In this document: one piece after another, positions 54 through 63,996 of the stretch
Layout: every line of letters begins with the position of its first letter
Position numbering within the stretch: the stretch's first letter is position 1
Origin: a virus
DNA length: 64,000 nucleotides
Reading direction: 5' to 3' (one strand)
Virus record (IMG/VR): IMGVR_UViG_3300026518_000008
Location: 29,164-93,163 of that record
Made by a program: the position numbers and the translations under genes
Notes under the pieces: generated by a model
What the model saw: the letters and a program-made list of their open reading frames with translations, nothing else
Databases searched by the model: none
Told to the model about the DNA's origin: nothing

Positions 54-593
54 ATGAGTGAGTTTACAGAGTATCGCAGACTAGGTTCTGCTTGGGCTAG
101 ACCAGTTACCGCATATGATTGTACTGGAGAGGGAATCGAGAGGCTAGAGTCGATAGGAGTATCTATTTCACCAGCAGATCTTGATGCAGGATCACCTAGA
201 ATTGGTGACATGATATGCATGAATCCATCTAATTATGCAGATCAGTGGCTAGTAACTCACGATTACTTTCAGGAGAACTTCGAGCATATTGCCTCTGGTT
301 CTGATGTATTGCATACAGGATCTCAGATTGGTGTTCGCAGAGGCTCACTTGATTCAGTGAATAGCGAGCGTTTTTACAGAGGGCTACGATTCGAGTTTAG
401 CGGTAGCTCAGATGACTTTATTGAGATATCTACATCTGGAGTTCGTACGCTATTTGGAGCTAATTCACAGATGGCTGACGATGCCTATACTAGATCGCTT
501 GAGGATGCTATTAGAGACTACATATCTCGCGTTGATGCTGGAGAGATACTTTCTACTAACACATATGAGAAATTTAGAGAGCTACTTAGTTAG
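54..593 (+). CDS. phage hypothetical protein
   Basis: 179-aa ORF; AGGA ribosome-binding site (RBS) and TGATATACT extended -10 upstream; no recognisable catalytic motif. Confidence 0.7.
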   Translation: MSEFTEYRRLGSAWARPVTAYDCTGEGIERLESIGVSISPADLDAGSPRIGDMICMNPSNYADQWLVTHDYFQENFEHIASGSDVLHTGSQIGVRRGSLDSVNSERFYRGLRFEFSGSSDDFIEISTSGVRTLFGANSQMADDAYTRSLEDAIRDYISRVDAGEILSTNTYEKFRELLS

Positions 594-985
594 GGTATCA
601 CTTGGTGATACGCATCTAATATCACATCTTCTTCGGCTTTGAAAAATTCAGTGCATCCATCGAATCTTTCTGCTGGTTCGTATCCATATATTTTCAGTAG
701 ATTGTGTATAGCTTTTTCATCTCCATATGGATCTTTTGATTTTCTATCTCGTTTTAGTCTAGACATTGGTACTACTTGATATGACAGATATATACTTCTG
801 AGCACTTGCATGAATCTATCTATACTTGACTTCCCACTAGCCTTTCCTATTTTGTATACTACATCTCCGTCCAGCTTAAATTTCATGCAGTATACTCTCC
901 CCTGGTTCTTAGGCGGTTTATCTGCTCGTCCACTAGCTCTATCTACATATTCTTCACTTGTACCTATCAGATTTGCTATTGACAT
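590..985 (-). CDS. T5orf172/MUG113-type (GIY-YIG-related) domain protein
   Basis: GRVYCM...YKIGK, E..IH and F.GCTEFF pattern typical of the family. Confidence 0.7.
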   Translation of the reverse strand: MSIANLIGTSEEYVDRASGRADKPPKNQGRVYCMKFKLDGDVVYKIGKASGKSSIDRFMQVLRSIYLSYQVVPMSRLKRDRKSKDPYGDEKAIHNLLKIYGYEPAERFDGCTEFFKAEEDVILDAYHQVIP

Positions 986-991
986 ATACTA

Positions 992-1216
992 CTACTGTTC
1001 AGAACCAGTGGTGATGAGCTCAGCTGCTTCAGATGGTACTATCCAGGATATCTCGTTGAGACCTTCAGGTATTGACAGAGACTCACAGTTTGGACAAGTT
1101 AGGATACTTACCAGCAGTGGTTCACCAGATGGAGACTCTATATCTAGCTTTGATATCAGATCTGCTTCCATATCAAATCCTAGACGGCAATGTGGGCACA
1201 CATATATATTACTCAT
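992..1216 (-). CDS. small zinc-ribbon protein
   Basis: CPHC...CPNC; tightly packed in a leftward operon. Confidence 0.65.
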   Translation of the reverse strand: MSNIYVCPHCRLGFDMEADLISKLDIESPSGEPLLVSILTCPNCESLSIPEGLNEISWIVPSEAAELITTGSEQ

Positions 1217-1226
1217 ATTCCATTCC

Positions 1227-1472
1227 TTATAGTATTAGTCCCAGACTCGGACTTTCTTTGAGCAGTTTTGCTTTCTCAACTGCTTCCTGCTCTTGTTGTT
1301 CCAGCCACTTCTGTCTGGCTAGATCATATACCATTCTTACTCCGTTTATTATATCTACTGTTATCCAGCATATATCTTTCCATTCAGAGTCTATGTATGC
1401 CCATCTAGGCAATTCATCCATTTGTTTGAGTAGTCTTGGTTTCATATTGTGGATTATACCACAACATTTCAT
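1227..1472 (-). CDS. hypothetical protein
   Basis: 81-aa ORF packed between co-oriented neighbours. Confidence 0.5.
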   Translation of the reverse strand: MKCCGIIHNMKPRLLKQMDELPRWAYIDSEWKDICWITVDIINGVRMVYDLARQKWLEQQEQEAVEKAKLLKESPSLGLIL

Positions 1473-1478
1473 ATTTGA

Positions 1479-2101: not shown

Positions 2102-2752
2102 TTGGTTTTGGATATTCCGTGCTACACGATGCTGGGCAGGAATTCCCTATATTATAGAATATATTATAGAACAGCATATCTACGTTCGCATGACTACGCA
2201 TGCTCACAGTTCATCTCTCCGAGGGAGACTGTGGGATACTATTTACCTTATCTATGAGGTATATTCAGAACCAGGGGAGATGGACTACTACAGATTTCAG
2301 AGTTTAGTTATTTAGTGGTCCAGATCTGATTTCAGCTCAGACTGGTATAGGCTGGACATTTTTTGTTTCCAGACTTAATCTGGTCAGCTGGCTATTGACT
2401 TGCCTAGATGTTTGCAGACTTGGATAACATCCTTTACGGATCTTTTGCCTTGTAGCAATAGCAATCGTTGCATCTTTTGTCCATCTCTATACTTAAGTGC
2501 ATTCTATTACACCAGTTGTTACTACTTAGACCGTTAAGATCAACCATATACATACACTTCTTGCAGGCTTGCTTAGTCATGGATTTTCCTTTGACTCACA
2601 GTCGGCTTTGAACCAGTCGCAGTCTTATATTATTGTATCTACTTTGATCTTAGCTTTGGCTTTGGCTCACAGCTAACTTCAGACTTTGTATATGCATTCA
2701 TCTCCCTGGTTCTGACTTATTACAGAGGTAGTCCTTGGTAGGCTGCCGCAGG

Positions 2753-5180: not shown

Positions 5181-5408
5181 ATGGCACTATCATCAACAGC
5201 TAGAGACTTCAGACTAGCATACATTCAATACATGATCTCAGAGGCTATGTCTACAACTAATATCGAGGACCAAGACAAAATAGCTAGAGAGATCCAGGCT
5301 TCATCACTACAATTACCATTCAGAGAATTAGTAGACATGGCCATATACGACGGATTAATCGACTCATTCGATGACATATACACAGAACCAGAGGGAGATA
5401 TACTATGA
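5181..5408 (+). CDS. early hypothetical protein
   Basis: AAGGAG RBS before ATG 5181. Confidence 0.7.
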   Translation: MALSSTARDFRLAYIQYMISEAMSTTNIEDQDKIAREIQASSLQLPFRELVDMAIYDGLIDSFDDIYTEPEGDIL

Positions 5409-5711: not shown

Positions 5712-5966
5712 ACCTATGTACACATACAACAATATTCGATTCGCTACCAAGCTGGATCGAGACACATATTATATCCGTATGGAGCTCTACCTCAGAACCA
5801 GAGGCTAGACTACATACCAAATCTTACAACGGGAGGAATTTGATTATGAATTCATTTGACGATCAGTACGACGAAGATTCTAGATTAATCTTTTGTCAAG
5901 GGTAGATACTACCATCATGCTTTGACCTGAAAAGGTCTTCAACTAATTACCATACAGGAGATAGAT

Positions 5967-6351: not shown

Positions 6352-6981
6352 ATGGCAACTAGAAAATCAAATAAAATAACACAAGTACAAAAGGCTGCGA
6401 ATAGTATAATAGAGTCTCGTAACAAATTCTTACAGACTAATCCATCGGCAATCAATTACAAACTTCGTACTGAGTCTATAGCTAAACTCAAAGAAATCAT
6501 TATGTCAGTTACAGAAATTGCAAACATGGACCAAAGTAAAATCGCTGGTCGTATCACAGCTGCATCATCAGCTCGTAATGAATATGGTCGCGTATCAGGT
6601 TTGATGAACTTGCTTGCAACAATCATCAATTGGCCTTCAGATAGTCGCAAACCAGACGGATTAAACGAAACTCGTCAAGAAATTCTAGATTCACTTGGAA
6701 TGGATTTCACTATTTTCGAGGACTTGAAATCTGCGAAGGGATACCATACTTTCACTACAGACGAGCACTCTATTGAGCCAGGAATAGAACCAGCATTCGA
6801 AGAGTACAATATGCTAGTAGAACTACTTGCTTCTGAACTTGGATTATCGGTAGTAGATGTCAATCTTGACGAAGATAAATGGCACAGAGATGAGGTAAAG
6901 GCTATTGAGTCAGCTCAGTCAGAACTTGATGCTATCACTGCAGAACTTGAGTTACATCAACAACTACATGGAGCAGCATAG
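6352..6981 (+). CDS. hypothetical protein upstream of the RNA polymerase
   Basis: 209-aa ORF with AAGGA RBS. Confidence 0.8.
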   Translation: MATRKSNKITQVQKAANSIIESRNKFLQTNPSAINYKLRTESIAKLKEIIMSVTEIANMDQSKIAGRITAASSARNEYGRVSGLMNLLATIINWPSDSRKPDGLNETRQEILDSLGMDFTIFEDLKSAKGYHTFTTDEHSIEPGIEPAFEEYNMLVELLASELGLSVVDVNLDEDKWHRDEVKAIESAQSELDAITAELELHQQLHGAA

Positions 6982-6995
6982 CTATTCACCACTAC

Positions 6996-7046
6996 AGAAC
7001 CAGAGATAGATTGGACTATTTCCAGTCTTTTCTCTCTGGTTCTTTT
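6996..7046 (+). terminator. long hairpin, probable terminator
   Basis: AGAACCAGAGA...TCTCTGGTTCT outer stem with an AGATTGGA/TCCAGTCT inner stem, then T residues. Confidence 0.5.
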
Positions 7047-9340: not shown

Positions 9341-9793
9341 ATGTGGTATCAGAAATTATGGATAGCTATACCAATTACTATTGTTATTGCTTTTTTTTTC
9401 TCACTTATTCCTATTGCTATATGGCTTGGTATTTTTTTACTTTTTTATTTTTTTTTTACTAGAAATAATGATAAAAATAGAACAACAGATGAACTCAGAG
9501 AGAAATATAGACAGAATGCGTATGATACAGATAGTTACATTGACTATTCTAGAGTACCATATCAGTATTATGAGGCCTATAAAGATTACCTCAGAACCAG
9601 GGAGTGGCGTTCGCTTAGATTAGAAGTTTTAAACAGAGATTCTTTCAGTTGTGTTAAATGTGGAACAGAAGCTATAGATACTCCATTGCATGTTCACCAT
9701 ATACATTACAGAGGAATAGAGACGATGACATTTACACCAGATCAGCTAATTACCATTTGCCCATCTTGTCACAAATTAGAGCATCAGCATTAG
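9341..9793 (+). CDS. HNH endonuclease with N-terminal membrane anchor
   Basis: RDSFSCVKCG...LHVHHIHY...LITICPSCH; first ~38 aa strongly hydrophobic; GGAGG RBS. Confidence 0.8.
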   Translation: MWYQKLWIAIPITIVIAFFFSLIPIAIWLGIFLLFYFFFTRNNDKNRTTDELREKYRQNAYDTDSYIDYSRVPYQYYEAYKDYLRTREWRSLRLEVLNRDSFSCVKCGTEAIDTPLHVHHIHYRGIETMTFTPDQLITICPSCHKLEHQH

Positions 9794-10231: not shown

Positions 10232-10774
10232 ATGAAATTAACATATAGAGATATGAATCAACTTAGAATAGGAGATATAGTTCAATATATAAATCCTACT
10301 CCAGATGGACCGAATACAGCAGGATTTAAACAAGGAGAGATATATATAGCAGACATTACTCTAAATTATTTCAATGATATAAAGCATATACATATATATG
10401 TTGATCGAGAGAGTAGCATCAATGCTCCAGCGACTAACTTTAGACTTCTCCAGACATATCCTGGTAGCTCAGCAGAGGTGGGAGATCTGTGCATATATAT
10501 GCGACGAGGAAATGGCCGTATTAAATATGGAGAACTATTTATAGTAACACATTTATTCCCAAGAAGTACTGGACATGACGTTGGATATGAACAGGGATTT
10601 TCTTGTGATATATCGTCATGTAGAGTTGTTTGCAGAGCAGCAGATATTGGTGCTACAAGATTAGATAACAACACCACAGAACCAGAGGGAGACGATACTA
10701 TATCTGATGCAGAGACTACACGAGTTACACATCTAACTCATAGAAACATAGGTACTATGTTTTACAAATCTTAG
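10232..10774 (+). CDS. hypothetical protein, repeated beta-domain family
   Basis: Shares F.L..T.P...GD and C-terminal FYK motifs with 11018-11815. Confidence 0.7.
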   Translation: MKLTYRDMNQLRIGDIVQYINPTPDGPNTAGFKQGEIYIADITLNYFNDIKHIHIYVDRESSINAPATNFRLLQTYPGSSAEVGDLCIYMRRGNGRIKYGELFIVTHLFPRSTGHDVGYEQGFSCDISSCRVVCRAADIGATRLDNNTTEPEGDDTISDAETTRVTHLTHRNIGTMFYKS

Positions 10775-11815: not shown

Positions 11816-12814
11816 AATATGCAACACTTAGCTACAATTACATCCATTTCAGACAAAACAGTAACACTTATATATCATTACGGAGGACTTGACTATACAG
11901 TTATGACTCCCAGATTTTTCTGGAAGAAGTCTTCATTAAGTGTTGGCGAGGAACTTGAACTTTTCATTGGAATGCCAAATCAATTTACGAAAGGATAGCA
12001 TTATGAATTCACAAATTTCAAACCTCAGATCAGCTTTACTATGTATTGGATATACTTCCAGACAGGTAGATTTAATTGCTAGAGGAGTGAGGGTTTCTAC
12101 TCTCAGTACAGGAATTGACAAGCCAGAGGATGGACAGTATTTATCTATCTCAGAACCAGAGTCGTAGGACTACCTACTCACATATAACATTATTATACAG
12201 GACATTATTATGACACGCAATTCATTATTTACATTAGCAGGACTATCTACAGTTATGGGATCAGTTGGAGACATACTTATGCCTTCGAATTCTCCACTCA
12301 CACAGGATTCAGCTTCAGCTCTATCAGAGTCACAGCAGAGACATCTTGACTAGGTCAATGCTTCTCGTTCACAGAGACAGATGAGACTCGATAGAGGACA
12401 TCATACAATTGCTATTGGAGAACGACGCTTGTTTCGCAACAAACAAAGAGCATTCAAAGCTTCGAATCGTTATTGTAATAACATTGGATCAGATGGCAGT
12501 ATCGTTTATACTTAGATATTATTGCAGTGCAAAACATCACCGGACTAGAGTGATGGTGTCTTTTTATGACGTCCTTTTAACTCATCACAGGAGCTATGTT
12601 CCTACATAGTACACACATAGTTCACTACTCCAGAGTTGTTAGATGTTTAGTTGAATGGATGGCCTGAATCACCCAGCTGCAGCCAAACTCGTTTAATTCC
12701 CAGATTAATTATGATCTGGGGACTTTATACATAAATTCGGTTATTTATGTATCTGATCATATATTGGAGCTATCTTTGCAGATGGTTCTCATATATTATT
12801 ACAGGAGATTTATT

Positions 12815-55400: not shown

Positions 55401-58400
55401 GTGCTATCGCTGGATTGTCATACAGGGCGAATTTTGGATCTTGTATTTTTACGTCTTTGTTTGGAGTTATTCTTGGAGCAGGTATACTTTGTAGTAGATT
55501 GTTTCCAGTGATTACTGATTCTGACCATATCATACTATTTTCACCATGCTCAGCTATATTTATTGATCCTAGTGATGACTTACTTTTTCCTTCTTTAGTT
55601 GTTATCATATCAGGTATATATATATTTCTAGTCGTACGAATGTAGTTTCCATTTTTATCTTTTATGTATTGTCCATTTTTATCTTTTTCTCTGACAGACA
55701 TAGTTTTTTGTGCATCTCCATAATTATTTATTACTACAGAGTTTAGTCCAGTTGTCTTTTGACTATCTATCAGATCTTGTGTCTTGTACACTTTTCCTAT
55801 TTCTGCTTTGAGCTCTTTGACTCTTTTTATCATCTTGTCACGAGTTTTGAACAGTTTTGGTTTTGACTTTTGTATTGCATCTCTAGTATTTTTATTTGCT
55901 TTTTGTCTTGCATAGTCCATAGCTCGTTTTGAATTTATTGTTGCTTGTTTTTGTTGTATGTCTTTTATTCTTGCATTGATTTCATCTACTATTTTTTGTT
56001 GAGCTTTTGCTTTTTTGAGTATATTTCGTAGTTGTCCAGCTTTATCAGTGAATGCTTTCCATGCTTTATATCTTCCATCTTTTGTGAGCAGATCGTTTAG
56101 ATGTGCATATATCTCTTTTCCTAGTTTTTTTCCTAGTTGCGTTATTCTATCAGCTAGAGTATTGATTGACTTTGATTCATCATTTATTTCATTTGCTTTT
56201 TCTTGATTGAATCCTTTCATCATTCGCTTTGTATGGTTGTCCCATTTTAACATTGCTTTTTTTGCTTGATTCTTTATTGATTTGAGCTTTATTTTTTCTT
56301 TTTCCAGCTTTTTTATTTCAGCTTTATATTCATCGCTCAGCTTTTTTTGCTTTTCTTTGAATTCAGATTTTGCTTCTTTGCTATTTAGTCTTTCATATAT
56401 CTTCTGAGCATCTTCCAATAGTGAGTCTATCTGTGTATTTTTTGACTCTAGAGTTTTTCGTATCACCTCATGCTCTTTTTCTATTTTCTTTTCCAGCTCA
56501 TTTATTTCTTTGATTCTTTCTTCTGCTTTACTTAGTTCTACCTTTGGTTCTTCGGTTGGTTTAGTTTTAGTTTCTGTTTCAGTATCATTATTTGCTTCAT
56601 CTTTTATTTCTGTATTTATATCTGATTTTGTATCTGATTTTGTATCTTGATTGATTACTTCAGAACCAGAGGCACGAGGTATCATTCCAGTTGTGTCGCC
56701 TTCCATCTCTTCTAGCATTGGATTTGATTCTTGAGCAGTTGTTCTACCTTCGTATTTGTATCCCTGGTTCTGAGGTGATACTTCTTTTTTCGCATCATTA
56801 TCTTCTTTGTTGCTTATGTCGAGCTTGTCATGATTTACTGCTGATAGCATTAGGTCTTGCTCTTCTTTTAGTGCATTTATTACATTTTGCACAGAGCTAT
56901 TGCTTGCCCCTATACCTGCAGCCATCATTTGCCTAGTTGCTTCTTTTTTATTTGCAGTGCTTTGTTTTTTGTCAGTGCTATACAGCTCAGAGCTTAGATC
57001 AAGATCTGGAGATATCTTTCCTTCTTCTTGAGCTATTTTCATGTCTCCTATTGTTATAGTTCCATTTTGAGATACATAGTCAGACCCCAGTTGATCATGT
57101 GCTAGATCAGTCAGTGTTTCTCTCGCATTTAGTTGGAATTCTCCTTGATTTTTTCCATATATATCTTGATTTGAATATTGAGTTTTTATCATTGAGTCTT
57201 TAGACAGAGCATGATTGCTTTTATATATATCTATTGCATTTTGTATTTTTGGATTTTTAGACTTTGTTATTTTCATATACTCATATGGTTTTAGTCTATG
57301 TTCTTCTGCCATTGCTATTTGTAGTGCATTCTTATATGGTATTTGAGCTGCTTTTGCGAATGCCACTATATTATCATTCACTACGCTTTTTGCTTCTTCT
57401 TGGGCAGCAATGAGTTTATTGGTCTTATCTTGTTGAACACCAGCGAACCTATGCATTTCAGATTTCCACTTATTCTTTTCGTCTTCAGTTTCTGACTCCA
57501 TCATATTTTTATAGTAGTCAATATATCCTAGTCTATTTTCTCTTTTGAATCCATCAACTTCTACACGTTTTCCTACTTGTCTCATATCTTCTCTTAGGCC
57601 GACATATTTTTTTGCCATCTCCACAGAATTGTTGTATTCTTCTTCTTTCATACCGTTTTTTAGTGCGAACGATTTAAACTCATCCGTATCTATACTTTTT
57701 AGCTCTTCTCTTGTTCCCATTCCTAGCATTGCTTTACGTATTATATTGTCTGTTTCTCTAGGAGTTGCACCTTTTAGTATTTTGTTTATTTCTTCATAGT
57801 CTCCATGTGCAGTATTGTATGCAGCTTCTGCAACATATGGCATTGTTACACTATTGTCTACTCTATTTTTTATTCTGAGTAGTGCATCTTTTTCTGGACC
57901 ATCTTCCATTGCTACTATTTTTTGTTTGAGCTCTCTACTCTTTTTGAATCCCTCTAGTGGATCAGTTTGCCCAATAGATTCCATATCATATATATCTTTT
58001 CTTGTCTGATTTCCTAGATTTGACATTTGTAGATTGTCATCTTCTTCTATTGTTTGAGTATTTATTGCTGCTTGAGCTTGTTCTTCATTGTATTTTTCTC
58101 TTTCTTCTTGATTCATATTTGCTATCTTATCTTCTTGTGCATTTTTCTTTTTTTTGTCATTCATGTCTTTAACTGCTGGTATTACTTCTGCACCACCAGA
58201 TATTATTGCACCTGGACCCATTGCTGCTCCGAATGATTGGAACATCTCTCTTCCTAGTGTTCCATCGTAGAGTTCTTTTTCTGCATTTGTTCCAAATTTT
58301 TCACTGAATGATTGCACTATCTGCTGAGCTGTTTCAGTTATGCCTTCATATCCAGCCTTGCCAGATACCTTGAGTGCTTTTTGTGCGAATGTTTTTACTA

Positions 58401-59934
58401 GAGCTTTTGCCGACTTCTCTGTTCCATTTTCTATTACATTTCCTATTAGCTTTTGGACATAGTTTGTGTTTCCTATTAGCTCGTCTACACCTATTTTTTC
58501 TAGCCCCATTTGTAGAGCAGCTCCTACGCCAGCTTGCAGTCTTTTTAAATAGCCTATATCTGATTTACTTGTGTTTTTTTGTACTTCAGACATTGATTCA
58601 TTTGCCATACCTATTGTGGTTATTGCCATTCCGACTGGATTTCTTGTAGCTATCATATATACTGCACTTTCAGCAGCCCATTCTGGCCCTGCAGTTATCA
58701 TACCTTTCACTAGAGATCCTGCAGCATTCATAATATTTTCTGTATTTGGATTTTCAATCATTTTGTCATATGATTTTCCTAGGTCTTCTGTTGCTAGATT
58801 TGTTCTTGTATTATCATATCCATATTCTTGTGGAGTTTTATATTTGTCAGCCCATATAAAATCTCCATTTTTGACATATCCTTTTAATTCTTTATCCAGT
58901 ATTGCGTTTCTTTCTGCTTCAGTTCTATTTGGGTTATATACTTCATCAATATTTTTTCCTATCCTTATACCAGCATCAACTATTGCATCTCCGAATTCTG
59001 CTGCAGTTCTTCCTACGCCGAATTGTAGAGCATCTACTAGATTGCCTACCCTTGAACTACTTTGTACAGTATCTTTGAGCTGCATTTGTCTTAATTGCTC
59101 ATCCGTGTACCCTGACATACTCCCTGCGTTGTTTACTTCAGAACCAGGGATGTTGTTTCTTGCTTTATCTGGAGTAAGATTCATTCTAGGATCTATTGCA
59201 TGTTCTTGAGTTACATTTTCTCCAGCATTATTTCCTAGGCTTGCCATACTTCTGTTTGATCCAGATGCTAGCCCTTGATATAGGTTTGATTGTATTGGTA
59301 TGTCTAGAGGTATATATTGTTTTTGCCCATATTCATCCACAGTATTTCCAGTTAGATTCACTGGTTCTGCATTAGGTATGAATGGTGCCATCCATCTTTC
59401 TGTTCCAGCATCTTCTTTTGTTCTTGCTAGGTCTGATAGCTTTTGTATTGTTTGCATATTTGAGACATCAGACAGATCTTGATTCGTTACTTGGTCTATC
59501 GGCTTGCCTACTATGTCTGCTACTTGTTGTAGCTGTCCAGTTTTCCATCTACTTTTTGCTATCTCTTCTTTTGGAGTGTTGCTTCTTTCTGTTGTTATAT
59601 CGTATGTTCCATCTTTATTTTTATTATATAGATAGTGATATCCCTCTATTGCATCATAGTCATATGCATTTGGAGCAGTCACTTCCCTAGTTGATTTTCT
59701 TCTTTCTCCATCTATCTCTTGACTCTTTAGATATGGAGTATCTGCATCTGTCATCCCAGTCAGAGTATCTGGAGTCCAATTTGCTTTAGTCCTATCTGCA
59801 TCTGTCGCCAGAGCATCTACTTTTGATTTATTTAGGTTTTGTGCTTTTGATGATGATACTGGTGCTTCATTTAGAGCATCAATTGTCGTATCTACATTTC
59901 TTTGTAGGAGTTGTGCCAGAGAGTAATTTGCCAT
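52459..59934 (-). CDS. virion-encapsidated single-subunit RNA polymerase (N4 vRNAP-like), 2491 aa
   Basis: NRM...DPQ; motif A LEVDGKTNG; motif B RELLKDPFMTFNYSAG; IDG; motif C PVFDA; one Cys in the whole chain. Confidence 0.9.
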   Translation of the reverse strand: MANYSLAQLLQRNVDTTIDALNEAPVSSSKAQNLNKSKVDALATDADRTKANWTPDTLTGMTDADTPYLKSQEIDGERRKSTREVTAPNAYDYDAIEGYHYLYNKNKDGTYDITTERSNTPKEEIAKSRWKTGQLQQVADIVGKPIDQVTNQDLSDVSNMQTIQKLSDLARTKEDAGTERWMAPFIPNAEPVNLTGNTVDEYGQKQYIPLDIPIQSNLYQGLASGSNRSMASLGNNAGENVTQEHAIDPRMNLTPDKARNNIPGSEVNNAGSMSGYTDEQLRQMQLKDTVQSSSRVGNLVDALQFGVGRTAAEFGDAIVDAGIRIGKNIDEVYNPNRTEAERNAILDKELKGYVKNGDFIWADKYKTPQEYGYDNTRTNLATEDLGKSYDKMIENPNTENIMNAAGSLVKGMITAGPEWAAESAVYMIATRNPVGMAITTIGMANESMSEVQKNTSKSDIGYLKRLQAGVGAALQMGLEKIGVDELIGNTNYVQKLIGNVIENGTEKSAKALVKTFAQKALKVSGKAGYEGITETAQQIVQSFSEKFGTNAEKELYDGTLGREMFQSFGAAMGPGAIISGGAEVIPAVKDMNDKKKKNAQEDKIANMNQEEREKYNEEQAQAAINTQTIEEDDNLQMSNLGNQTRKDIYDMESIGQTDPLEGFKKSRELKQKIVAMEDGPEKDALLRIKNRVDNSVTMPYVAEAAYNTAHGDYEEINKILKGATPRETDNIIRKAMLGMGTREELKSIDTDEFKSFALKNGMKEEEYNNSVEMAKKYVGLREDMRQVGKRVEVDGFKRENRLGYIDYYKNMMESETEDEKNKWKSEMHRFAGVQQDKTNKLIAAQEEAKSVVNDNIVAFAKAAQIPYKNALQIAMAEEHRLKPYEYMKITKSKNPKIQNAIDIYKSNHALSKDSMIKTQYSNQDIYGKNQGEFQLNARETLTDLAHDQLGSDYVSQNGTITIGDMKIAQEEGKISPDLDLSSELYSTDKKQSTANKKEATRQMMAAGIGASNSSVQNVINALKEEQDLMLSAVNHDKLDISNKEDNDAKKEVSPQNQGYKYEGRTTAQESNPMLEEMEGDTTGMIPRASGSEVINQDTKSDTKSDINTEIKDEANNDTETETKTKPTEEPKVELSKAEERIKEINELEKKIEKEHEVIRKTLESKNTQIDSLLEDAQKIYERLNSKEAKSEFKEKQKKLSDEYKAEIKKLEKEKIKLKSIKNQAKKAMLKWDNHTKRMMKGFNQEKANEINDESKSINTLADRITQLGKKLGKEIYAHLNDLLTKDGRYKAWKAFTDKAGQLRNILKKAKAQQKIVDEINARIKDIQQKQATINSKRAMDYARQKANKNTRDAIQKSKPKLFKTRDKMIKRVKELKAEIGKVYKTQDLIDSQKTTGLNSVVINNYGDAQKTMSVREKDKNGQYIKDKNGNYIRTTRNIYIPDMITTKEGKSKSSLGSINIAEHGENSMIWSESVITGNNLLQSIPAPRITPNKDVKIQDPKFALYDNPAIALLYNASGDLNWNVVGAIATVTQDILANNMSRIQMARPKDIASYYGINEENITADIMETLGQGIPLKYFTNSAGESIMKQLGIIQNPNGKNADYIAIKQGLGEMVFQNMRALGKIKQHSQSSVNAKYIAQLQGKSKKEIDAINKDASMPMVKISDEYNMIGETKLAKRKLERLDTEVGVDKMIKTYRTKKKDMTNHVSKVKNNPHSDVYPAMQESVNKQTNQEYNIDMNGMQNLMEIGKEKALEIMGWKNVDQMKKSKKYSHDTIEAQKGKNFQLENEWNGLEEVYQKIESGEIDNEIYFDWFVSKTNRMFLDGNILDPQSQKHIQRWLVTGKESYAEADMSNNEHREAFLYGIGQAFGIKVDGIETKKREELAEQILDIPAKKLRSTVMSAIKSGEKSIGIKHNNEIVKIKVDHLGHIMSALNAVQAYQMQEDGKFNTNLVLEVDGKTNGFAIKVAQGMVEDEDGEWQKRVGIVDADAEPGMSTNDILSRPGQLDSYEGLAQKLLAIKDIIANGKAWIKKRRAEGLENGDTEEYEGFEKQLDALIPYIPGSDVVEEKIVDEIDSSMRELLKDPFMTFNYSAGMNSIIKSLARVMMKNVPDDIVNESKQGKIIMNSLGIPESHHNEYREFLRNNSIDSDKSNLSYPLAERLELIVRSTYGEAITEILESELGQAAEYSNQMNDASKYQMRMYMEVLEMEIGKGGNISIAQLEKITNRPEIRAIFPIVAGPLSTSREDGVAIFNSMIKSREDMRDVNVKLIGEEQASINIQSIERTLAEAMSAAAVGLTQTIDGANMAMTINENDGINPVFDAAVGGVTNMHSAVRSLNKWFSVLNSQYNMYEASKNALKESIIAHSEYMQKHGTHEQKINPLAKINSDNAKDNLKSTGGKKIFWIDDSGKKVKWKSKSVAKHLSIMEESSKEIQGNRDNMAKQNLNVMQFVFTENTGYKTKGTQVDGKQKEDIIQKLAKSKNINLAKKCGE

Positions 59935-59991: not shown

Positions 59992-61707
59992 TTATCTTAT
60001 TATTGGATTTCTTTTTTTTGCTTTCACTTGAGTCATTTTTTCTATTGCTTGATCTATTGACATCAGTGGATTAATTTTCATTATAGCATCTATTGTTTTC
60101 TTTTCATCTTCTGTAGCATCTTCGTTGAGCCATTTTAGTCTTTGTTTTTGTGTCATCTTTGCTTTTTCTAGTTTAGCATTTTCTTGTGACATTTTACTAA
60201 ATATTCCTCCATACTGTCCACTATTTTTCATTTCTTCTATTTTTGGCATGTCTGGTACTATACTATTTATAAATTTCGCAATTTTTTCTTTCCCTGATGT
60301 ATGTTCTTCTTTCGGAACATCTCTGAATCCATCCAGAGAGAATGGATCTAGTGGCTTTGATATTGAATCTGGACTATTGTTTGTTACGTACTGTGCTTCA
60401 GTCGTATTTTTATTTGTTTCTGATGGATCATTATTTACATTACCGTCTTTTACTTCAGAACCAGGGATAGATGGGTTTTTCTTGCCTGTTGATGAGTTTG
60501 TTAGTATAGACATTAGTTCATCATATGCTTCTTGCTTTGGAGTCTTTCTTGTTGCATATTTTGCATTTACTGCCTTTATTGCTTTTCCTCTTTTTTTCAG
60601 CAGACTGGACAGCTTATTTTCTTGACTAGATACATTTCCTGGTATTATTTTCACACCAGTTTTTGATCTTGCTTGATACCCGTTATTTTTTAGTGTATTG
60701 ATATAGTTATTTTGATTTATCGCATCCCACTTTGCTTTTGCTTTACTGTCTGATGTATTGACATTATTTTCTTTGAACTTATCTAGTCTATCATTCATTA
60801 TATTTAGACCATCTGCTTTTGTTATCCAGCTACCATTGTCATTTTGTAGTGCATATTGGAATGCCTGATCTATCTGCTCTGGAGACCATTTTTGTTTCAC
60901 AGCTAGATTATTTATTTTATCAGATACTTCATTATATCCAATACCTGACCAGTCAGTTGTTTTTGATAGTATACCCTTCCATTTTTGATCTAGTAGTTTT
61001 CTGTCTATATCTGGGTTTCCAGTGTATCGTATTGATTTTCCAGCACCTTTTCCGTTTCCACTACTTTTTGCTGCATATGATGTAGATTTCAGAGCTTTAT
61101 CTGTTACTGAACCTTTGTTTATCAGAGATGCTTGTTTATTTGTTATATAATCTATATTTTCTAGCTCTGTTTTTTGTTGAGCAGCTAGGAGTGCCTTTCT
61201 GTTTGCATCTTTTATTACAGCAGCATCGTATCCTGTTTTTGCTAGAGTATATGCATCTTTATTTCCAGAGTTTAGAGCAGCAGTGAGTTTATACGCAGAG
61301 GATTGCAGATCATTTTCGTTCGTTAGTGCATCTAGCTTTCCACTTTTTAGTATTGCGTTTCCTAGTCCTGTCTCATCTACTTTTGGACCAGTTCCATTAT
61401 CACTAGATACTAGAGCAGCATTAATTGCATTTCCATACTGTTCAGCTTTTGAGTCAGCTCCTAGTAGTATATCTCTCACTTCTTGCTGATGTTTTTGTCT
61501 CAGCAGTTCTGGCTGGGCTAGACTCTTCTCTCTGTACGCTACATCTTCATCTCGTTTTTGTTGTGCTAGTGTAAATCTTTCTTTGTCTAGTCTTCTCGCA
61601 TCTATGTTTCTGAAACTATTCATTGCTGTTTGGAACATTATTGCAGGAGAATTATATGCATTTTGCACATTTGGTGCGTTAAAACTATATGGCTGATTTA
61701 TACTCAT
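59992..61707 (-). CDS. internal virion/ejection protein
   Basis: Cys-free, K/N/Q-rich 571 aa directly upstream of the vRNAP gene. Confidence 0.65.
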   Translation of the reverse strand: MSINQPYSFNAPNVQNAYNSPAIMFQTAMNSFRNIDARRLDKERFTLAQQKRDEDVAYREKSLAQPELLRQKHQQEVRDILLGADSKAEQYGNAINAALVSSDNGTGPKVDETGLGNAILKSGKLDALTNENDLQSSAYKLTAALNSGNKDAYTLAKTGYDAAVIKDANRKALLAAQQKTELENIDYITNKQASLINKGSVTDKALKSTSYAAKSSGNGKGAGKSIRYTGNPDIDRKLLDQKWKGILSKTTDWSGIGYNEVSDKINNLAVKQKWSPEQIDQAFQYALQNDNGSWITKADGLNIMNDRLDKFKENNVNTSDSKAKAKWDAINQNNYINTLKNNGYQARSKTGVKIIPGNVSSQENKLSSLLKKRGKAIKAVNAKYATRKTPKQEAYDELMSILTNSSTGKKNPSIPGSEVKDGNVNNDPSETNKNTTEAQYVTNNSPDSISKPLDPFSLDGFRDVPKEEHTSGKEKIAKFINSIVPDMPKIEEMKNSGQYGGIFSKMSQENAKLEKAKMTQKQRLKWLNEDATEDEKKTIDAIMKINPLMSIDQAIEKMTQVKAKKRNPIIR

Positions 61708-61722
61708 GTCTTTTCCTTTTGC

Positions 61723-62304
61723 TTATGCTTGTGCGAATGCAGCATTTGCTGCTTTTGATACTCTTTGTCTTCTTTTATATTCTGCATCGTTCATTGAATA
61801 CTGTTGTTCTAGATTTTTTCTTTGATCATCTGACGTTTTTTTGTTGCTATTTATCATTTGATTTGTGAAATACAGTCCACCAATTCCACTAGCTATGTCT
61901 ACTGCATTTCCTAGATTGTCCATTGAGAACATACTGCTTTTACCTCCACTATCTGTAGTTCCATCAGATAGAGACTTTCCTAGACCTTCAAGTTCTCCTT
62001 GGTTCATTCCGTTTACTGAATTTGCAAATTCAGGATTATTCATATAGTTATCAGATAACTCTTGTGTAGTCATTGCTCTTGAGCCGCCATAAAAATTCCC
62101 TACTGTAGCAACTGGATGACTTCCTCCAGATATAGATGGATTTGTACTAAAATATGATCTATCTGTATTGTATCCTTTATACTCACCATGTCTATCGTTT
62201 TGTGCAATAAAATAATCAGATATATCTTTATCACTATATCCTCTCATTTTCATATTATTAATCAAATCACTAGTTCCTGTGTTCGTATCATCTATGCTTT
62301 CCAT
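61723..62304 (-). CDS. small internal virion/pilot protein
   Basis: Cys-free; Gly-rich hydrophobic segment (LGNAVDIASGIGGLY) followed by a Q/N-rich helix. Confidence 0.6.
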   Translation of the reverse strand: MESIDDTNTGTSDLINNMKMRGYSDKDISDYFIAQNDRHGEYKGYNTDRSYFSTNPSISGGSHPVATVGNFYGGSRAMTTQELSDNYMNNPEFANSVNGMNQGELEGLGKSLSDGTTDSGGKSSMFSMDNLGNAVDIASGIGGLYFTNQMINSNKKTSDDQRKNLEQQYSMNDAEYKRRQRVSKAANAAFAQA

Positions 62305-62340
62305 ATCTTTTTCCTTTTCTATGCTAATTTTATTGCAGCC

Positions 62341-62352
62341 ATTATATCATAT
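62341..62352 (-). promoter_or_regulatory. extended -10 promoter
   Basis: Minus-strand ATATGATATAAT upstream of the gene starting at 62304. Confidence 0.55.
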
Positions 62353-62382
62353 TTTTACTTTATCCCTGGTTCTGGAGTATGG

Positions 62383-63996
62383 CTAGAAATACTTGTGTGT
62401 TGCTCCATCTATGAGACCTTGTGTCATGTTGTATGGTACTTGGTCCATCTTCTCATTTATTTCTAGGAAATTATATGATTCGAAATTCCATTTTGTAACT
62501 GCATATTTCATTGCAGTTGGCATCTTATCCATCATGAGCTTTTGTTGATTAACCTTTTCTTGCATCTCACTTACTTTTTTATTATTGCTTTGCATTTGTT
62601 GTTTAGCTACATAGTCATAGATTTTCGATGAATAGTTGATAGTAGTAGATACTAGCTCTAGCGTACTCATTTCTGCATATTTTTCTAGTATAGCATCTAC
62701 ACCTTTATCTACTAAATTGTTTAGGATTTCATTTAGTCCTAGGAATGCACCTACATACCCTACAATTGTTAGCATGTCTCCATACATTGCTGCTGCATTT
62801 GGATTACCATATTCTGCTTCATTATATGTTAAAACTCCGAGAGATATGCTTACAGCTAGAGCGAGATATGCATATGCTGCTGCAACTTCAGGAGAAGTAG
62901 CTCCATCTGATAGTACAGTTGCTATTATAGCTATGAATAACAACAATATTCCTAACACCTGTTTCCATGGAGCTACTGGAGTTTTTTCGTAGTCAGTACC
63001 AATCATTTTCCCTACTTCATCAGAAAATTTAACTCCATTATGGTTTATCTTAGTTGCTTGACTTATCACTGCAGGTAGGCTATCTAGATATGATTTTCTC
63101 ACATATTGATTTACTATTGTATATGAATCGCTCATCTCATCATCACCATATTCTCTTGATTGTACGAATTTTTTTGAGTCTATTATATCATTTGACACTA
63201 GAGAGTACACTTCATTTTTTTGTTTAGTTAGTGCATACTCGTAGTTTACTCTAGTTGTACCTCCATATCCATCATCTTCTGTAATTGTAACTGCTTTTTG
63301 ATTATTAGTTCTAGTCTCTATTGCAATTGACACATTATAGTTTGATTTGAGTGAGTAGTCTATCGTAAACGAGTACCATTGTCCATATTTATTTTTGTCC
63401 TTTAGTGTACCATCACTATTCATTATTGCACCACGACCATTTGCATTTATATTTATATCATAGATCTCTTCATCGACATCTAGTAATGCCAGCCACTGAT
63501 CGTTATACTTCATATCATAGTCTATCTTTTCTACATTTGTTGTGTTGAGTTTATTCTTCAGTATTGCTATCTGATCTTTTGATTCTATATTTCTGTACAG
63601 ATCTATATCTGTATCTTTGAATGTGAATATTCTTTTTTTTGTAGTTGAGTATCTATTTACTACCGTAGTTATTTCTGCTATTGACGCATCTTGATGTGTC
63701 TTCCATGGTACTATTTTGTACCATAGCTGACTAACTCCTTTTAGACCACCATTTTCACTTTTCGCATTTATTTTATCTACACTTACACCTATAAGTTTAT
63801 ATATTTTTTTTGCTTGATCTGTCTCTACAGCAGAGCCTTTTCCATTGCTACCATTCCAGAATACGAATATGCTCATTACTTCCACATCAGAACCAGTGGG
63901 GAGTCCAGTAGCATCAGTATCTGGTACTAACATTGTTGGCCATGTACGCATGAACTCACGCTTAAATTTATTACCTCTTTTGTACCTAGAGAGCAC
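62383..63996 (-). CDS. virion protein with transmembrane segments, probably truncated at the window edge
   Basis: Frame is open almost to the window end; several hydrophobic helices in the C-terminal third. Confidence 0.65.
   Translation of the reverse strand: MLSRYKRGNKFKREFMRTWPTMLVPDTDATGLPTGSDVEVMSIFVFWNGSNGKGSAVETDQAKKIYKLIGVSVDKINAKSENGGLKGVSQLWYKIVPWKTHQDASIAEITTVVNRYSTTKKRIFTFKDTDIDLYRNIESKDQIAILKNKLNTTNVEKIDYDMKYNDQWLALLDVDEEIYDININANGRGAIMNSDGTLKDKNKYGQWYSFTIDYSLKSNYNVSIAIETRTNNQKAVTITEDDGYGGTTRVNYEYALTKQKNEVYSLVSNDIIDSKKFVQSREYGDDEMSDSYTIVNQYVRKSYLDSLPAVISQATKINHNGVKFSDEVGKMIGTDYEKTPVAPWKQVLGILLLFIAIIATVLSDGATSPEVAAAYAYLALAVSISLGVLTYNEAEYGNPNAAAMYGDMLTIVGYVGAFLGLNEILNNLVDKGVDAILEKYAEMSTLELVSTTINYSSKIYDYVAKQQMQSNNKKVSEMQEKVNQQKLMMDKMPTAMKYAVTKWNFESYNFLEINEKMDQVPYNMTQGLIDGATHKYF

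What the first reader, a model, noticed from the sequence alone, without database searches (positions are those of the whole stretch)
295..63896. Asymmetric motif CAGAACCAG repeated at least 47 times and imprinted on protein sequences
Seen (start positions, counted by eye). Plus strand: 1000, 2266, 5383, 5793, 6995, 9592, 10677, 12151, 16907, 17321, 19125, 22704, 23921, 24820, 26718, 31319, 32184, 35072, 37859, 39937, 42137, 42919, 45561, 47936, 51249, 52320, 53748, 56661, 59139, 60456, 63888. Minus strand: 295, 2706, 11262, 13023, 14931, 19371, 31548, 34290, 37540, 44939, 47677, 51683, 53961, 56764, 59361, 62366. At about 35% GC, chance expectation is roughly 0.2 copies. Flanks are also biased (ACNT before, NG after). 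It occurs in several reading frames (SEPE/TEPE, PGSE/SGSD, QNQ, LRTR, LVL) and between genes, so selection acts on the DNA, and orientation does not follow transcription. Inference: a genome-wide binding or identity code at about one site per 1.4 kb. Options include Chi-like protection from host nucleases, loading sites for a phage DNA-binding or packaging/ejection protein, self-marking that spares phage DNA from phage nucleases, or priming sites.
Basis: seen in the sequence. Interest (0 to 1): 0.85.

Follow-up and report, generated by a model that had tools for sequence, protein, structure and literature searches.

The report
N4-family phage genome-wide DNA word
A 9-letter DNA word (CAGAACCAG) is written about every 1.2-1.5 kb, on both strands and through genes, in this N4-like phage; related words mark coliphage N4 and many relatives but not their hosts, so it is probably a phage-read replication signal, perhaps where the phage primase-helicase starts work.

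Summary

- **DNA-level selection.** The excess survives a protein-preserving synonymous-codon shuffle (62 against 14.8). Sites lie in all frames, sense and antisense, and between genes. Flank preferences cover about 20 bp and show no hairpin covariation.
- **Conservation and spacing.** All 7 aligned sites are kept in a relative of 73% nucleotide identity (baseline 11%, P=2e-7). Spacing on each strand is more even than chance (CV 0.57 and 0.53, P<0.00025).
- **Phage identity.** The genome is an N4-like podophage, not crAss-like.
- **A family signal.** Words with a shared RACCA core are the top over-represented words in coliphage N4 (GA[A/G]CCAG, 141 against 49 under codon shuffle), PhAPEC5, a Pseudomonas Litunavirus and about 15 metagenomic relatives. 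T7, a 50 kb E. coli sample and the non-phage contigs of a Sulfurimonas MAG show no excess.
- **Reading.** A host Chi or uptake signal is disfavoured. My best guess (about 0.4) is a recognition or initiation site for the gp43-like protein (MCM-like helicase, winged helix, AEP primase, PriCT-1). Function is not shown.

This scan found the same family signature before on another genome (e1-3437665). My literature searches found no published description.

The parts
295..303 (-). CAGAACCAG site
   Evidence: exact match
902..910 (-). variant site AAGAACCAG
   Evidence: core AGAACCAG
1000..1008 (+). CAGAACCAG site
2266..2274 (+). CAGAACCAG site
2706..2714 (-). CAGAACCAG site (intergenic)
5383..5391 (+). 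CAGAACCAG site
5793..5801 (+). CAGAACCAG site
6785..6793 (+). variant site TAGAACCAG
6995..7003 (+). CAGAACCAG site (intergenic; 40 bp from a facing variant site)
7036..7044 (-). variant site AAGAACCAG (intergenic)
9592..9600 (+). CAGAACCAG site
10677..10685 (+). CAGAACCAG site
11262..11270 (-). CAGAACCAG site
12151..12159 (+). CAGAACCAG site
13023..13031 (-). CAGAACCAG site
14931..14939 (-). CAGAACCAG site
16907..16915 (+). CAGAACCAG site
17045..17053 (-). variant site TAGAACCAG
17321..17329 (+). CAGAACCAG site
19125..19133 (+). CAGAACCAG site
19371..19379 (-). CAGAACCAG site (intergenic)
20491..20499 (-). variant site AAGAACCAG
22704..22712 (+). CAGAACCAG site
23921..23929 (+). CAGAACCAG site
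24641..24649 (-). variant site AAGAACCAG
24820..24828 (+). CAGAACCAG site (intergenic)
26364..26372 (-). variant site AAGAACCAG
26718..26726 (+). CAGAACCAG site
30708..30716 (-). variant site AAGAACCAG
31319..31327 (+). CAGAACCAG site
31548..31556 (-). CAGAACCAG site
32184..32192 (+). CAGAACCAG site
34290..34298 (-). CAGAACCAG site
35072..35080 (+). CAGAACCAG site, conserved in L001
35209..37347 (+). gp43-like gene, the candidate reader: MCM-like AAA+ helicase, winged helix, AEP primase, PriCT-1
37158..37166 (-). variant site AAGAACCAG, conserved in L001
37540..37548 (-). CAGAACCAG site
37859..37867 (+). CAGAACCAG site (intergenic)
39937..39945 (+). CAGAACCAG site, conserved in L001
40202..40210 (-). 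variant site AAGAACCAG (intergenic), conserved in L001
42137..42145 (+). CAGAACCAG site, conserved in L001
42919..42927 (+). CAGAACCAG site
44939..44947 (-). CAGAACCAG site, conserved in L001
45561..45569 (+). CAGAACCAG site, conserved in L001
47677..47685 (-). CAGAACCAG site
47936..47944 (+). CAGAACCAG site
51249..51257 (+). CAGAACCAG site
51683..51691 (-). CAGAACCAG site
52320..52328 (+). CAGAACCAG site
53748..53756 (+). CAGAACCAG site (in vRNAP gene, antisense)
53961..53969 (-). CAGAACCAG site (in vRNAP gene, sense)
56661..56669 (+). CAGAACCAG site
56764..56772 (-). CAGAACCAG site
59139..59147 (+). CAGAACCAG site
59361..59369 (-). CAGAACCAG site
60456..60464 (+). CAGAACCAG site
62366..62374 (-). 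CAGAACCAG site (intergenic)
63888..63896 (+). CAGAACCAG site

Best explanation
CAGAACCAG with its roughly 20-bp biased flanks is this lineage's version of a recognition word (shared core RACCA, usually preceded by GA or AG) that runs through the N4-like phages. It is read on the DNA itself by a phage-encoded replication protein.

The most likely reader is the gp43-like protein, which carries an MCM-like AAA+ helicase, a winged-helix domain, an AEP primase and a PriCT-1 helix bundle in one chain.

Inferred mechanism: the primosome recognises the complementary strand 5'-CTGGTTCT-3' as template, or the duplex word through the winged helix. It then starts a primer there whose first bases would be 5'-A(A)CCAG, running into the purine-rich, C-poor downstream flank. 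Sites of each orientation serve forks moving in one direction. Selection therefore keeps a site about every 2 kb on one strand and every 3 kb on the other, and keeps the density while individual sites turn over.

Shown: DNA-level selection, conservation, per-strand regular spacing, presence across the family with lineage variants, no excess in the two host-side samples tested, and the domain make-up of gp43.

For: **Selection on the DNA.**
- 47 sites in the window against 0.3 expected; 62 in the genome against 14.8 under a protein-preserving shuffle.
- Sites occur in all frames, on both transcription strands and between genes.
- Flank preferences are the same in every frame and strongest in intergenic sites. 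They show no pairing covariation.

**Purifying selection.**
- 7/7 aligned sites are kept in L001 at 73% identity against an 11.2% baseline, P=2e-7. 3/5 are kept in G001:C18 against 6.5%.

**Strand-specific regular spacing.**
- + strand: n=45, CV 0.57. - strand: n=31, CV 0.53. Both P<0.00025. Pooled CV 0.78.
- Weaker A/T-prefixed variants lie mostly on the poorer - strand: 9 of 10 in the window, 11 of 14 in the genome.

**Read by the phage, not the host.**
- Related words are the top over-represented words in N4 (GARCCAG, 141 against 49.4 +/- 5.5), PhAPEC5 (105 against 37.8), Pae575P-3 (AARCCAA, 105 against 29.9) and about 15 metagenomic relatives. These span three gp43 clades only 20-27% identical to each other.
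- GAACCAG observed/expected is 0.9 in T7 and 0.23 in 50 kb of E. coli.
- In the Sulfurimonas MAG G001, 24 of 33 copies lie on 3 contigs, two of them shown to be phage (C66 and C18). A reversed control word occurs 9 times.

**The candidate reader.**
- Residues 13-362 are MCM-like (Z 16.6, rmsd 4.0-4.3, 285 aligned) and 367-434 are a winged helix (Z about 9).
- Residues 435-620 have an AEP fold: Foldseek S-2L PrimPol E 9e-5, RepB' E 5e-3; VIA Z 7.0 and 5.7. DxD and H are invariant.
- PriCT_1 is found by Pfam.
- PriCT-1/helix-bundle domains are needed for template recognition in the pRN1 primase and are reported to bind DNA (PMC2965215, PMC5862659).
- Flanking sequence changes T7 primase binding up to 10-fold (PMC6136900).

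**Other points that fit.**
- In N4, PhAPEC5 and Pae575 the one tolerated substitution in the core is mainly A<->G at a single position, which fits a purine initiating nucleotide.
- The phage in G001 shares the word with G000 and has a 76% identical gp43, but only a 51% identical portal and a vRNAP 27% identical over the part that aligned. L014, also with a portal about 50% identical, uses TGAACCA.
Against: - There is no biochemical evidence here that gp43 primes, or that anything starts at these sites.
- Known primase words are 3-5 nt and only weakly enriched. The T7 words TGGTC, GGGTC and GTGTC have O/E 1.1-1.6.
- A 9-bp invariant core with about 20 bp of flank preference on both sides looks as much like a duplex-binding site as like a template start.
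- Orientation is mixed everywhere with a uniform 1.5-2:1 excess on one strand and no switch point. That does not match a single bidirectional origin.
- Per-strand regular spacing is clear only in the G000 lineage. In N4 and PhAPEC5 it is marginal (P about 0.06).
- All core genes share the phage phylogeny, so the comparative data cannot single out gp43. The module argument from G001 rests on one case.
- No DNA polymerase A domain was found in G000, so its replication apparatus is incompletely known.
Confidence: 0.4

Rival explanations
1. Chi-like or self-marking signal for a phage-encoded helicase-nuclease. N4-like phages carry a PD-(D/E)XK exonuclease, a Sak4-like annealing protein and helicases. 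The word would attenuate degradation or start recombination on phage DNA while host DNA, which lacks the word, is degraded.
For: - The word is asymmetric, present in both orientations and evenly spaced on each strand.
- It shows no excess in the host-side samples tested.
- G000 encodes a PD-(D/E)XK nuclease next to its helicases.
- The reverse complement CTGGTTCTG shares CTGGT with E. coli Chi GCTGGTGG (own knowledge).
Against: - No phage-encoded Chi system is known to me.
- There is no polarity toward the genome ends or any switch point.
- Density of 1 per 0.5-1.5 kb is several times higher than Chi in E. coli.
- The A/G tolerance at one core position has no obvious meaning in this model.
Confidence: 0.15
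2. Binding sites on duplex DNA for an architectural, packaging or ejection protein (a nucleoid-like protein, an internal virion protein or the terminase) that organises the genome in the capsid or during entry.
For: - The recognition surface is long, about 20 bp with flanks on both sides.
- Sites are spread evenly over the whole genome: every tenth of the genome holds 6-10.
Against: - Regular spacing is stronger per strand than pooled. That is unexpected if only occupancy of the duplex matters.
- The phage in G001 keeps the word although its portal is only 51% identical and its vRNAP only 27% identical over the aligned part.
- No conserved sequence-specific architectural protein is known in the family.
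- No HU-like protein was found in the proteins I scanned.
Confidence: 0.1
3. Start or loading sites on single-stranded DNA for the phage's small T7-like RNA polymerase (N4 RNAPII, gp15/gp16, with its ssDNA-binding cofactor). It would act as a primase for DNA synthesis, or make short transcripts, as mitochondrial RNA polymerase does.
For: - N4 RNAPII works on single-stranded templates, is recruited by an ssDNA-binding protein and recognises specific template-strand sequences (PMC4496689, PMC7145618).
- It is a core gene of the family.
Against: - Mapped middle promoters are described as AT-rich (PMC4496689). The word is not AT-rich and is as often antisense as sense to genes.
- A dedicated AEP primase is present.
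Confidence: 0.08
4. Site-specific single-strand nicks, as in T5 and some Pseudomonas phages, made by a phage nickase at the word.
For: - The word is asymmetric and occurs on both strands.
- The G000 contig begins exactly at GAACCAG.
- An HNH protein is present.
Against: - Only one contig end coincides with the word. Other related contigs do not end at it.
- Dozens to more than 100 nicks per genome would be far more than in known nicked phages (own knowledge).
- No conserved nickase is known in the family.
Confidence: 0.06
5. A host-derived signal (the host's Chi, an uptake sequence or another host protein's site) copied by the phage.
For: Frame accommodation in coding DNA resembles that of USS/DUS. 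The host of G000 is unknown, so its genome could not be tested directly.
Against: - The same core occurs in phages of E. coli, Pseudomonas and marine hosts.
- GAACCAG is 3 against 13 expected in 50 kb of E. coli, while N4 has 110.
- The non-phage contigs of MAG G001 show no excess over a control word.
Confidence: 0.03
6. No function: a by-product of codon, dipeptide or mutational bias, or a decayed repeat family or miniature mobile element.
For: The AD45-P1 word GAACTAG turned out to be largely of this kind: 42 of 64 copies sit in one sense frame.
Against: - For G000, N4, PhAPEC5, Pae575 and L033 the excess survives protein-preserving shuffles and fills all frames plus intergenic DNA.
- The core is sharply defined with few one-mismatch copies.
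- Sites are conserved above background.
- Sites unique to one phage arise by substitutions, not by insertions.
Confidence: 0.02

Closest known systems
Primase recognition sequences: T7 gp4 5'-(G/T)(G/T)GTC-3', T4 gp61 GTT/GCT, pRN1 ORF904 GTG, RSF1010 RepB' ssiA/ssiB
   Same: - An asymmetric word read on one strand, usable in either orientation and independent of transcription.
- The complement CTGGTT(C) contains GTT, or GCT in the A->G variants, and would template a primer starting pppAC/pppGC like T4 primers, and ACCA like a T7 primer (own knowledge).
- The phage encodes an AEP primase with a helix-bundle (PriCT-1) module of the type needed for template recognition in pRN1 (PMC2965215).
- Flanks matter for T7 primase too (PMC6136900).
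   Different: - Known phage primase words are 3-5 nt and barely enriched (T7 O/E 1.1-1.6).
- Here the invariant core is 7-9 nt with flank preferences over about 20 bp, enriched 4- to 200-fold, conserved in place and evenly spaced.
- No priming has been shown at these sites.
Chi sites (E. coli GCTGGTGG and the species-specific Chi of other bacteria)
   Same: Short asymmetric over-represented word, species-specific variants, tolerated inside genes.
   Different: Chi is a property of the host genome, is read by host RecBCD/AddAB and is co-oriented with replication. This word showed no excess in the host-side samples tested and has no polarity switch.
DNA uptake sequences (Neisseria DUS, Pasteurellaceae USS) and their 'dialects'
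   Same: - A 9-12 bp word about once per kb, in both orientations and fitted into benign reading frames.
- Related lineages carry variant words that differ at a few positions.
   Different: DUS/USS mark bacterial chromosomes for uptake by competent cells. This word marks lytic phage genomes and, in the samples tested, not their hosts.
Phage P4 alpha protein (primase, helicase, winged-helix origin binder) and its TGTTCACC iterons
   Same: One polypeptide combines primase, helicase and a winged-helix DNA-binding domain that recognises an 8-bp word (reference 28 cited in PMC4889955; own knowledge).
   Different: P4 iterons are clustered in ori and crr. Here sites are dispersed over the whole genome. 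The domain order and helicase class (MCM-like) also differ.
FtsK-orienting polar sequences (KOPS) and SpoIIIE SRS
   Same: Asymmetric 8-mers spread over a genome and read by a translocase.
   Different: KOPS are strongly polar toward dif. This word is mixed in orientation everywhere.

Membership tests
Primase recognition/initiation site | Primer synthesis starts at the word on the template strand | not testable with these tools
   Needs primase assays or mapping of nascent-strand 5' ends.
Primase recognition/initiation site | Word acts at DNA level, in either orientation, independent of genes | tested here: met
   30 sense, 35 antisense, 11 intergenic; survives the synonymous shuffle.
Primase recognition/initiation site | The replicon encodes a primase with a template-recognition module | tested here: met
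   The gp43-like protein has an AEP fold with DxD and H, plus PriCT_1, plus a winged helix.
Primase recognition/initiation site | Spacing per strand compatible with lagging-strand fragment lengths | tested here: met
   Mean gap is 2.1 kb on + and 3.0 kb on -, more regular than chance (CV 0.57 and 0.53, P<0.00025). The Okazaki length of 1-2 kb is from general knowledge.
Primase recognition/initiation site | Orientation matches fork direction from a known origin | tested here: inconclusive
   Uniform + excess and no switch point. The origin and replication mode of these phages are not known to me.
Chi site | Over-represented in the host chromosome | tested here: not met
   E. coli 50 kb sample: 3 against 13 expected, while N4 has 110. 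The non-phage contigs of MAG G001 show no excess over a control word. The host of G000 itself is unknown.
Chi site | Orientation polarity relative to replication or DNA ends | tested here: not met
   The +/- ratio is similar in all ten tenths of the genome.
DNA uptake sequence (DUS/USS) | Marks the chromosome of a naturally competent host | tested here: not met
   Same host-side tests as for Chi.
Structured RNA or DNA hairpin | Flanks pair and covary around the loop | tested here: not met
   Paired counts equal those expected under independence at all 13 registers tried.
Repeat or miniature mobile element | Copies are insertions that share extended sequence | tested here: not met
   Only about 20 bp of degenerate flank is shared. 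Sites unique to one phage differ from the homologous position by substitutions.
N4-like phages (Schitoviridae-type) | Giant virion RNA polymerase, N4-type portal, major capsid protein and gp43-like primase in the N4 gene layout | tested here: met
   2491-aa ORF beside a 1345-aa ORF on the late strand. Portal is 57.8% identical to Alteromonas phage AD45-P1 and matches 665 N4-like records. Gene families.
Archaeo-eukaryotic primase (AEP) superfamily, for the gp43-like protein | AEP fold with catalytic DxD and His motifs | tested here: met
   Foldseek S-2L PrimPol E 9e-5, probability 1.0. VIA Z 7.0, rmsd 3.7, 140 aligned; RepB' Z 5.7. D503, D505 and H530 are invariant in 27 sequences. The Z values are modest.

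The most novel reading that the evidence does not exclude
The word is a replication identity code. The N4-family primosome (gp43) loads or primes only on DNA that carries its own variant of the word. Phage DNA is therefore copied in preference to host DNA. Changes in the word, together with gp43, make related co-infecting phages mutually incompatible for replication, much as DUS variants limit exchange between Neisseria species.
Probability: 0.2. Interest if true: 0.85.

Novelty: new variant of a known kind. Interest (0 to 1): 0.72.

Why it matters
Genome-wide functional words (Chi, DUS/USS, KOPS) are known for bacterial chromosomes. An equivalent written through a whole lytic-phage family, with lineage-specific variants, does not seem to be described. 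My literature searches found nothing, although the searchable library is limited.

Coliphage N4 carries it too (GA[A/G]CCAG, about one per 500 bp), so the function can be tested directly in a classic laboratory system.

It would explain how N4-type replication, whose initiation is poorly understood, is directed to phage DNA.

Practically, the word is a simple sequence marker for spotting N4-like contigs in metagenomes and MAG bins. In G001, the three contigs that hold 24 of its 33 copies include both contigs shown to be phage.

Tried and rejected
- **Hairpin or structured RNA.** No covariation between the flanks.
- **crAss-like phage.** This was my first guess from the genome size and giant polymerase. 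The portal search placed it among N4-like phages.
- **Host signal.**
  - The first genome-contig scan, with NrdA, found nothing.
  - The second scan found the Sulfurimonas MAG contig, which allowed the host-side test.
- **Literature.**
  - Raw-motif searches return only primers.
  - Targeted searches on N4, over-represented motifs, primase and origin gave no description of the word.
- **Alteromonas phages as variants of the same signal.**
  - AD45-P1's GAACTAG is 42/64 in one sense frame, so it is probably codon-level.
  - R22Y and PT11-V19 have AACTAC at only 2x. I did not test its reading frames.
  - I do not count either case.
- **High-GC relatives** (L042, L045-47, L051) show no clear word.
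- **Specificity-determining residues in gp43.** Not attempted beyond the identity matrix, because the sample is too small.
- **Pairing of facing sites.** Only a weak excess.
- Contigs of the graded gp43 relatives P0002-P0027 could be reached only through the search for related loci.
- **gp43 by sequence alone.** PDB sequence searches for gp43 and for the 609-aa protein gave nothing.

Full report
**1. The observation.** The window is bases 29164-93163 of a single 93,163-bp contig with 35.8% G+C. The contig is an IMG/VR virus record classed linear and 85% complete. The whole genome has 62 copies, 42 on + and 20 on -.

The invariant core is the 8-mer AGAACCAG, with 76 copies. The base before it is C 62 times, A 11, T 3 and never G. 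All one-mismatch variants of the 9-mer together number only 44, so the word is sharply defined and is not a decaying repeat.

The flanks are biased over about 20 bp: G-poor YYACYT before the word and C-poor RGRDRD after it.

**2. Selection is on the DNA.** Using my own ORF calls (93% coding), the 76 core sites are 30 sense, 35 antisense and 11 intergenic.
- Two frames dominate: S/T-E-P-E/G for sense sites and P/S-G-S-E/D for antisense sites. Every possible frame is used.
- The one frame that a T before the word would turn into a TGA stop is used only by A-prefixed variants.
- The flank preferences are the same in each frame class and strongest in intergenic sites: A at -4 in 10/11, C at -3 in 10/11, G at +10 in 10/11.
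- None of 13 pairing registers between the flanks shows more pairs than independence predicts, so this is not a hairpin.
- A synonymous-codon shuffle that keeps every protein gives 14.8 +/- 2.5 copies (max 21). About 9 of these are unshuffled non-coding sites. Observed is 62. A within-gene codon shuffle gives 9.3.

**3. Conservation.**
- A metagenomic relative (L001, collinear, 73% nucleotide identity) has 18 core sites in 16.3 kb.
- All 7 G000 sites that fall in aligned blocks are intact in L001, against 11.2% for all 8-mers (P=2e-7).
- Against a more distant relative (G001:C18, 70% identity) 3 of 5 are kept, against 6.5% (P=0.002).
- Sites unique to one phage differ from the other by substitutions, not insertions. 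So sites are also gained and lost.

**4. Spacing.**
- Every tenth of the genome holds 6-10 sites with a similar +/- ratio. There is no switch point.
- On each strand separately the sites are much more evenly spaced than chance. On + there are 45 sites, mean gap 2.1 kb, CV 0.57. On - there are 31 sites, mean gap 3.0 kb, CV 0.53. Both have P<0.00025.
- The pooled set is less regular (CV 0.78, P=0.016).
- The weaker A/T-prefixed variants sit mostly on the poorer - strand: 9 of 10 in the window and 11 of 14 in the genome. Including them improves the regularity there.
- This points to a strand-specific function with a spacing requirement.
- There is a weak excess of close facing pairs (+ then - within 300 bp: 9 against 4.5, P=0.024). 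The same direction appears in N4 and L033, but I treat it as suggestive only.

**5. What the genome is.** It is not crAss-like.
- The portal is 57.8% identical to that of Alteromonas phage vB_AmaP_AD45-P1 and matches 665 N4-like records.
- The layout is N4-like: replication genes on +, and a 2491-aa virion RNA polymerase and structural genes on -.
- It encodes RIIA, class Ia RNR, ThyX, RtcB, a PD-(D/E)XK nuclease and two helicases interrupted by LAGLIDADG inteins.

**6. The word is a family signature with lineage variants.** An order-3 Markov ranking of all 7- and 8-mers gave the top words below.

| Genome or locus | Top word | Count |
|---|---|---|
| L028 and G001:C66 (gp43 76% identical to G000) | (C)AGAACCAG | 8 in 18.7 kb (L028); 23 in 40 kb (C66) |
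| L037 (gp43 26% identical) | AGAACCAG | 20 per 22 kb |
| L029, L030, L038 | AGAACCAC | 6, 17 and 23 per locus |
| L031 | GAACCACA | 14 per 12.8 kb |
| L033 | AGAACCAA and AGTACCAA | 34 and 23 per 22 kb |
| L032 | AGTACCAG | 14 per 22 kb |
| L034 | AGAGCCAG | 7 per 9.3 kb |
| L014/L015 | TGAACCA | 22-23 per about 11.5 kb |
| L049, L052/L053, L002/L003 | TGAACCA | 18-37 per locus |
| Coliphage N4 | GAACCAG | 110 per 70 kb (29 expected); GAGCCAG also enriched |
| Phage PhAPEC5 | GAACCAG | 77 (24.7 expected) |
| Pseudomonas phage Pae575P-3 | AAGCCAA and AAACCAA | 67 and 38 per 50 kb |

- Weaker signals of the same type are seen in a Vibrio and an Acinetobacter phage (AAACCA, about 2x).
- Protein-preserving shuffles confirm the excess, and all six frames plus intergenic DNA are used. 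N4 GARCCAG is 141 against 49.4 +/- 5.5. PhAPEC5 is 105 against 37.8. Pae575 is 105 against 29.9. L033 is 57 against 12.2.
- These phages fall in three deep gp43 clades, only 20-27% identical to one another. The word changes within each clade.
- Between N4 and PhAPEC5 (71% identity) only 35-40% of sites are in the same place, against 15.6% for all 7-mers. The density is the same in both. So density is what is kept.
- The shared core is RACCA.
- In N4, PhAPEC5 and Pae575 the one tolerated core substitution is mainly A<->G at a single position.
- I exclude AD45-P1's GAACTAG because 42 of 64 copies sit in one sense frame.
- High-GC relatives showed no clear word.

**7. Not a host signal.**
- GAACCAG has observed/expected 3.8 in N4, 0.9 in T7 and 0.23 (3 against 13) in a 50-kb sample of E. 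coli K-12.
- A close relative of G000 lies in a MAG labelled Sulfurimonas sp. (G001, 1.7 Mb). 24 of its 33 CAGAACCAG copies are on three contigs, and a reversed control word occurs 9 times.
- Two of those contigs are shown to be phage. C66 carries the vRNAP and portal homologues, and C18 is the gp43 contig. The third, C20, has 6 copies but I did not examine it.
- The remaining 9 copies match the control word's count, so the rest of the MAG shows no excess.
- The true host of G000 is unknown. The MAG binning is only a lead.

**8. The candidate reader.** The 'primase' (window 35209-37347, N4 gp43-like) was modelled from 27 homologues (pLDDT 82.8).
- Residues 13-362 match MCM AAA+ helicase modules (Z 16.6, rmsd 4.0-4.3 A, 285 residues aligned).
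- Residues 367-434 are a winged-helix domain (Z about 9).
- The C-terminal 278 residues, modelled alone (pLDDT 84), match AEP primases. Foldseek gives S-2L PrimPol E 9e-5 and RepB' E 5e-3. VIA gives Z 7.0 and 5.7, with many other AEPs at Z 4.3-5.
- DxD (D503, D505) and H530 are invariant.
- The protein ends in a Pfam PriCT_1 domain.
- N4 gp43 has a weak DUF3987 hit plus PriCT_1.
- The pRN1 primase needs its helix-bundle domain for template binding and faithful primer synthesis (PMC2965215). That domain is classed as PriCT-1, and PriCT domains are reported to bind DNA; winged helices in such proteins are proposed origin binders (PMC5862659).
- Flanking context changes T7 primase binding up to 10-fold (PMC6136900).

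**9. Mechanism (inference).** The complement 5'-CTGGTTC-3' contains GTT, or GCT in the A->G variants. These are the trinucleotides used by T4 primase (own knowledge). A primer started there would read 5'-A(A)CCAG and run into the purine-rich, C-poor flank.

Sites of each orientation would serve forks moving in one direction. That fits the per-strand regular spacing at Okazaki-like distances.

One comparative hint favours the replication module. The G001 phage shares G000's word and has a 76% identical gp43, but only a 51% identical portal and a vRNAP 27% identical over the part that aligned. L014, with a similarly distant portal, uses TGAACCA.

Points against this reading:
- Known primase words are short and hardly enriched (T7 O/E 1.1-1.6).
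- The long two-sided flanks would also suit a duplex binder.
- There is no orientation switch.
- Nothing here shows priming.

I put this reading at about 0.4. The rivals are a phage-encoded Chi-like system, an architectural or packaging protein, the ssDNA-dependent RNAPII (whose promoters are described as AT-rich, PMC4496689), and nicking. They are listed with their tests.

**10. Comparison and novelty.** The word behaves like Chi, DUS/USS or KOPS in being a selected genome-wide word with lineage variants. It differs in that it belongs to a lytic phage family and, in the samples tested, not to the hosts, and it lacks the polarity of Chi or KOPS.

It may work like a primase recognition sequence, but it is far longer and far more strongly selected than any I know.

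My literature searches found no description. An earlier follow-up in this scan (e1-3437665) reported the same family signature on another genome with the same primase guess. That is agreement between AI notes, not independent evidence, though I re-derived it here from the sequences.

Noticed in passing
window 32357-35137 and 40441-42990: Both large helicase genes (SF2 ResIII/Helicase_C type and UvrD type) carry LAGLIDADG homing-endonuclease domains. These are probably inteins, and they explain the spurious 'terminase' PHROG hits.
   Followed up: partly
whole genome G000: No family-A DNA polymerase domain was found anywhere in the 93 kb contig, although N4-like phages normally encode one. The contig gap lies in the late region and not the replication module. 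The 609-aa (window 7068-8897) and 462-aa (window 14705-16093) proteins have no Pfam match; only the 609-aa one was also searched against the PDB, also without a match.
   Followed up: partly
G000:C1:1-11 (outside the window): The contig starts exactly at GAACCAGTGGG. Joining the contig ends creates an extra core site with a G prefix that is never seen elsewhere. Other related contigs do not end at the word. This could be chance, or a hint of breaks at the word.
   Followed up: partly
window 6995-7044: Two facing sites (CAGAACCAG on +, AAGAACCAG on -) lie 40 bp apart in the intergenic gap just upstream of the 609-aa gene. Genome-wide there is a weak excess of close facing pairs, also seen in N4 and L033.
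   Followed up: partly
L018 (Alteromonas phage vB_AmeP_PT11-V19, first 50 kb): A different, longer repeated word, about CTGTTGATCCTGTTG, occurs 14-17 times in 50 kb (O/E above 40). CCCGGG is also 7-fold enriched. I did not analyse where the copies lie.
   Followed up: no
L016+L017 (Alteromonas phage AD45-P1): GAACTAG is 3.9-fold enriched, but 42 of 64 copies are in one sense frame (GAA CTA G). This is a codon-pair effect rather than a DNA signal.
   Followed up: yes
L026 (E. coli K-12 1,000,001-1,050,000): GAACCAG is about 4-fold under-represented in this host sample (3 against 13 expected). I did not test whether E. coli avoids the N4 word genome-wide.
   Followed up: no
L019+L020 (coliphage N4): TGACCCA is also enriched (43 copies). 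Unlike GAACCAG, it follows the transcribed strand: 13/3 in the + gene half and 3/24 in the - gene half. It is therefore a different, transcription-linked signal.
   Followed up: no
G001 (MAG 'Sulfurimonas sp. D96SM.bin.28'), contigs C18, C20, C66: About 88 kb of an N4-like phage closely related to G000 is binned inside a Sulfurimonas MAG. This is a host lead, or a binning artefact.
   Followed up: partly
window 20007-27241: An E1/E2/JAB-like gene trio, and a tRNA-like array next to RtcB, were noted by earlier readers of this genome. RtcB is the only part of this stretch with nucleotide similarity to cultured phages.
   Followed up: no
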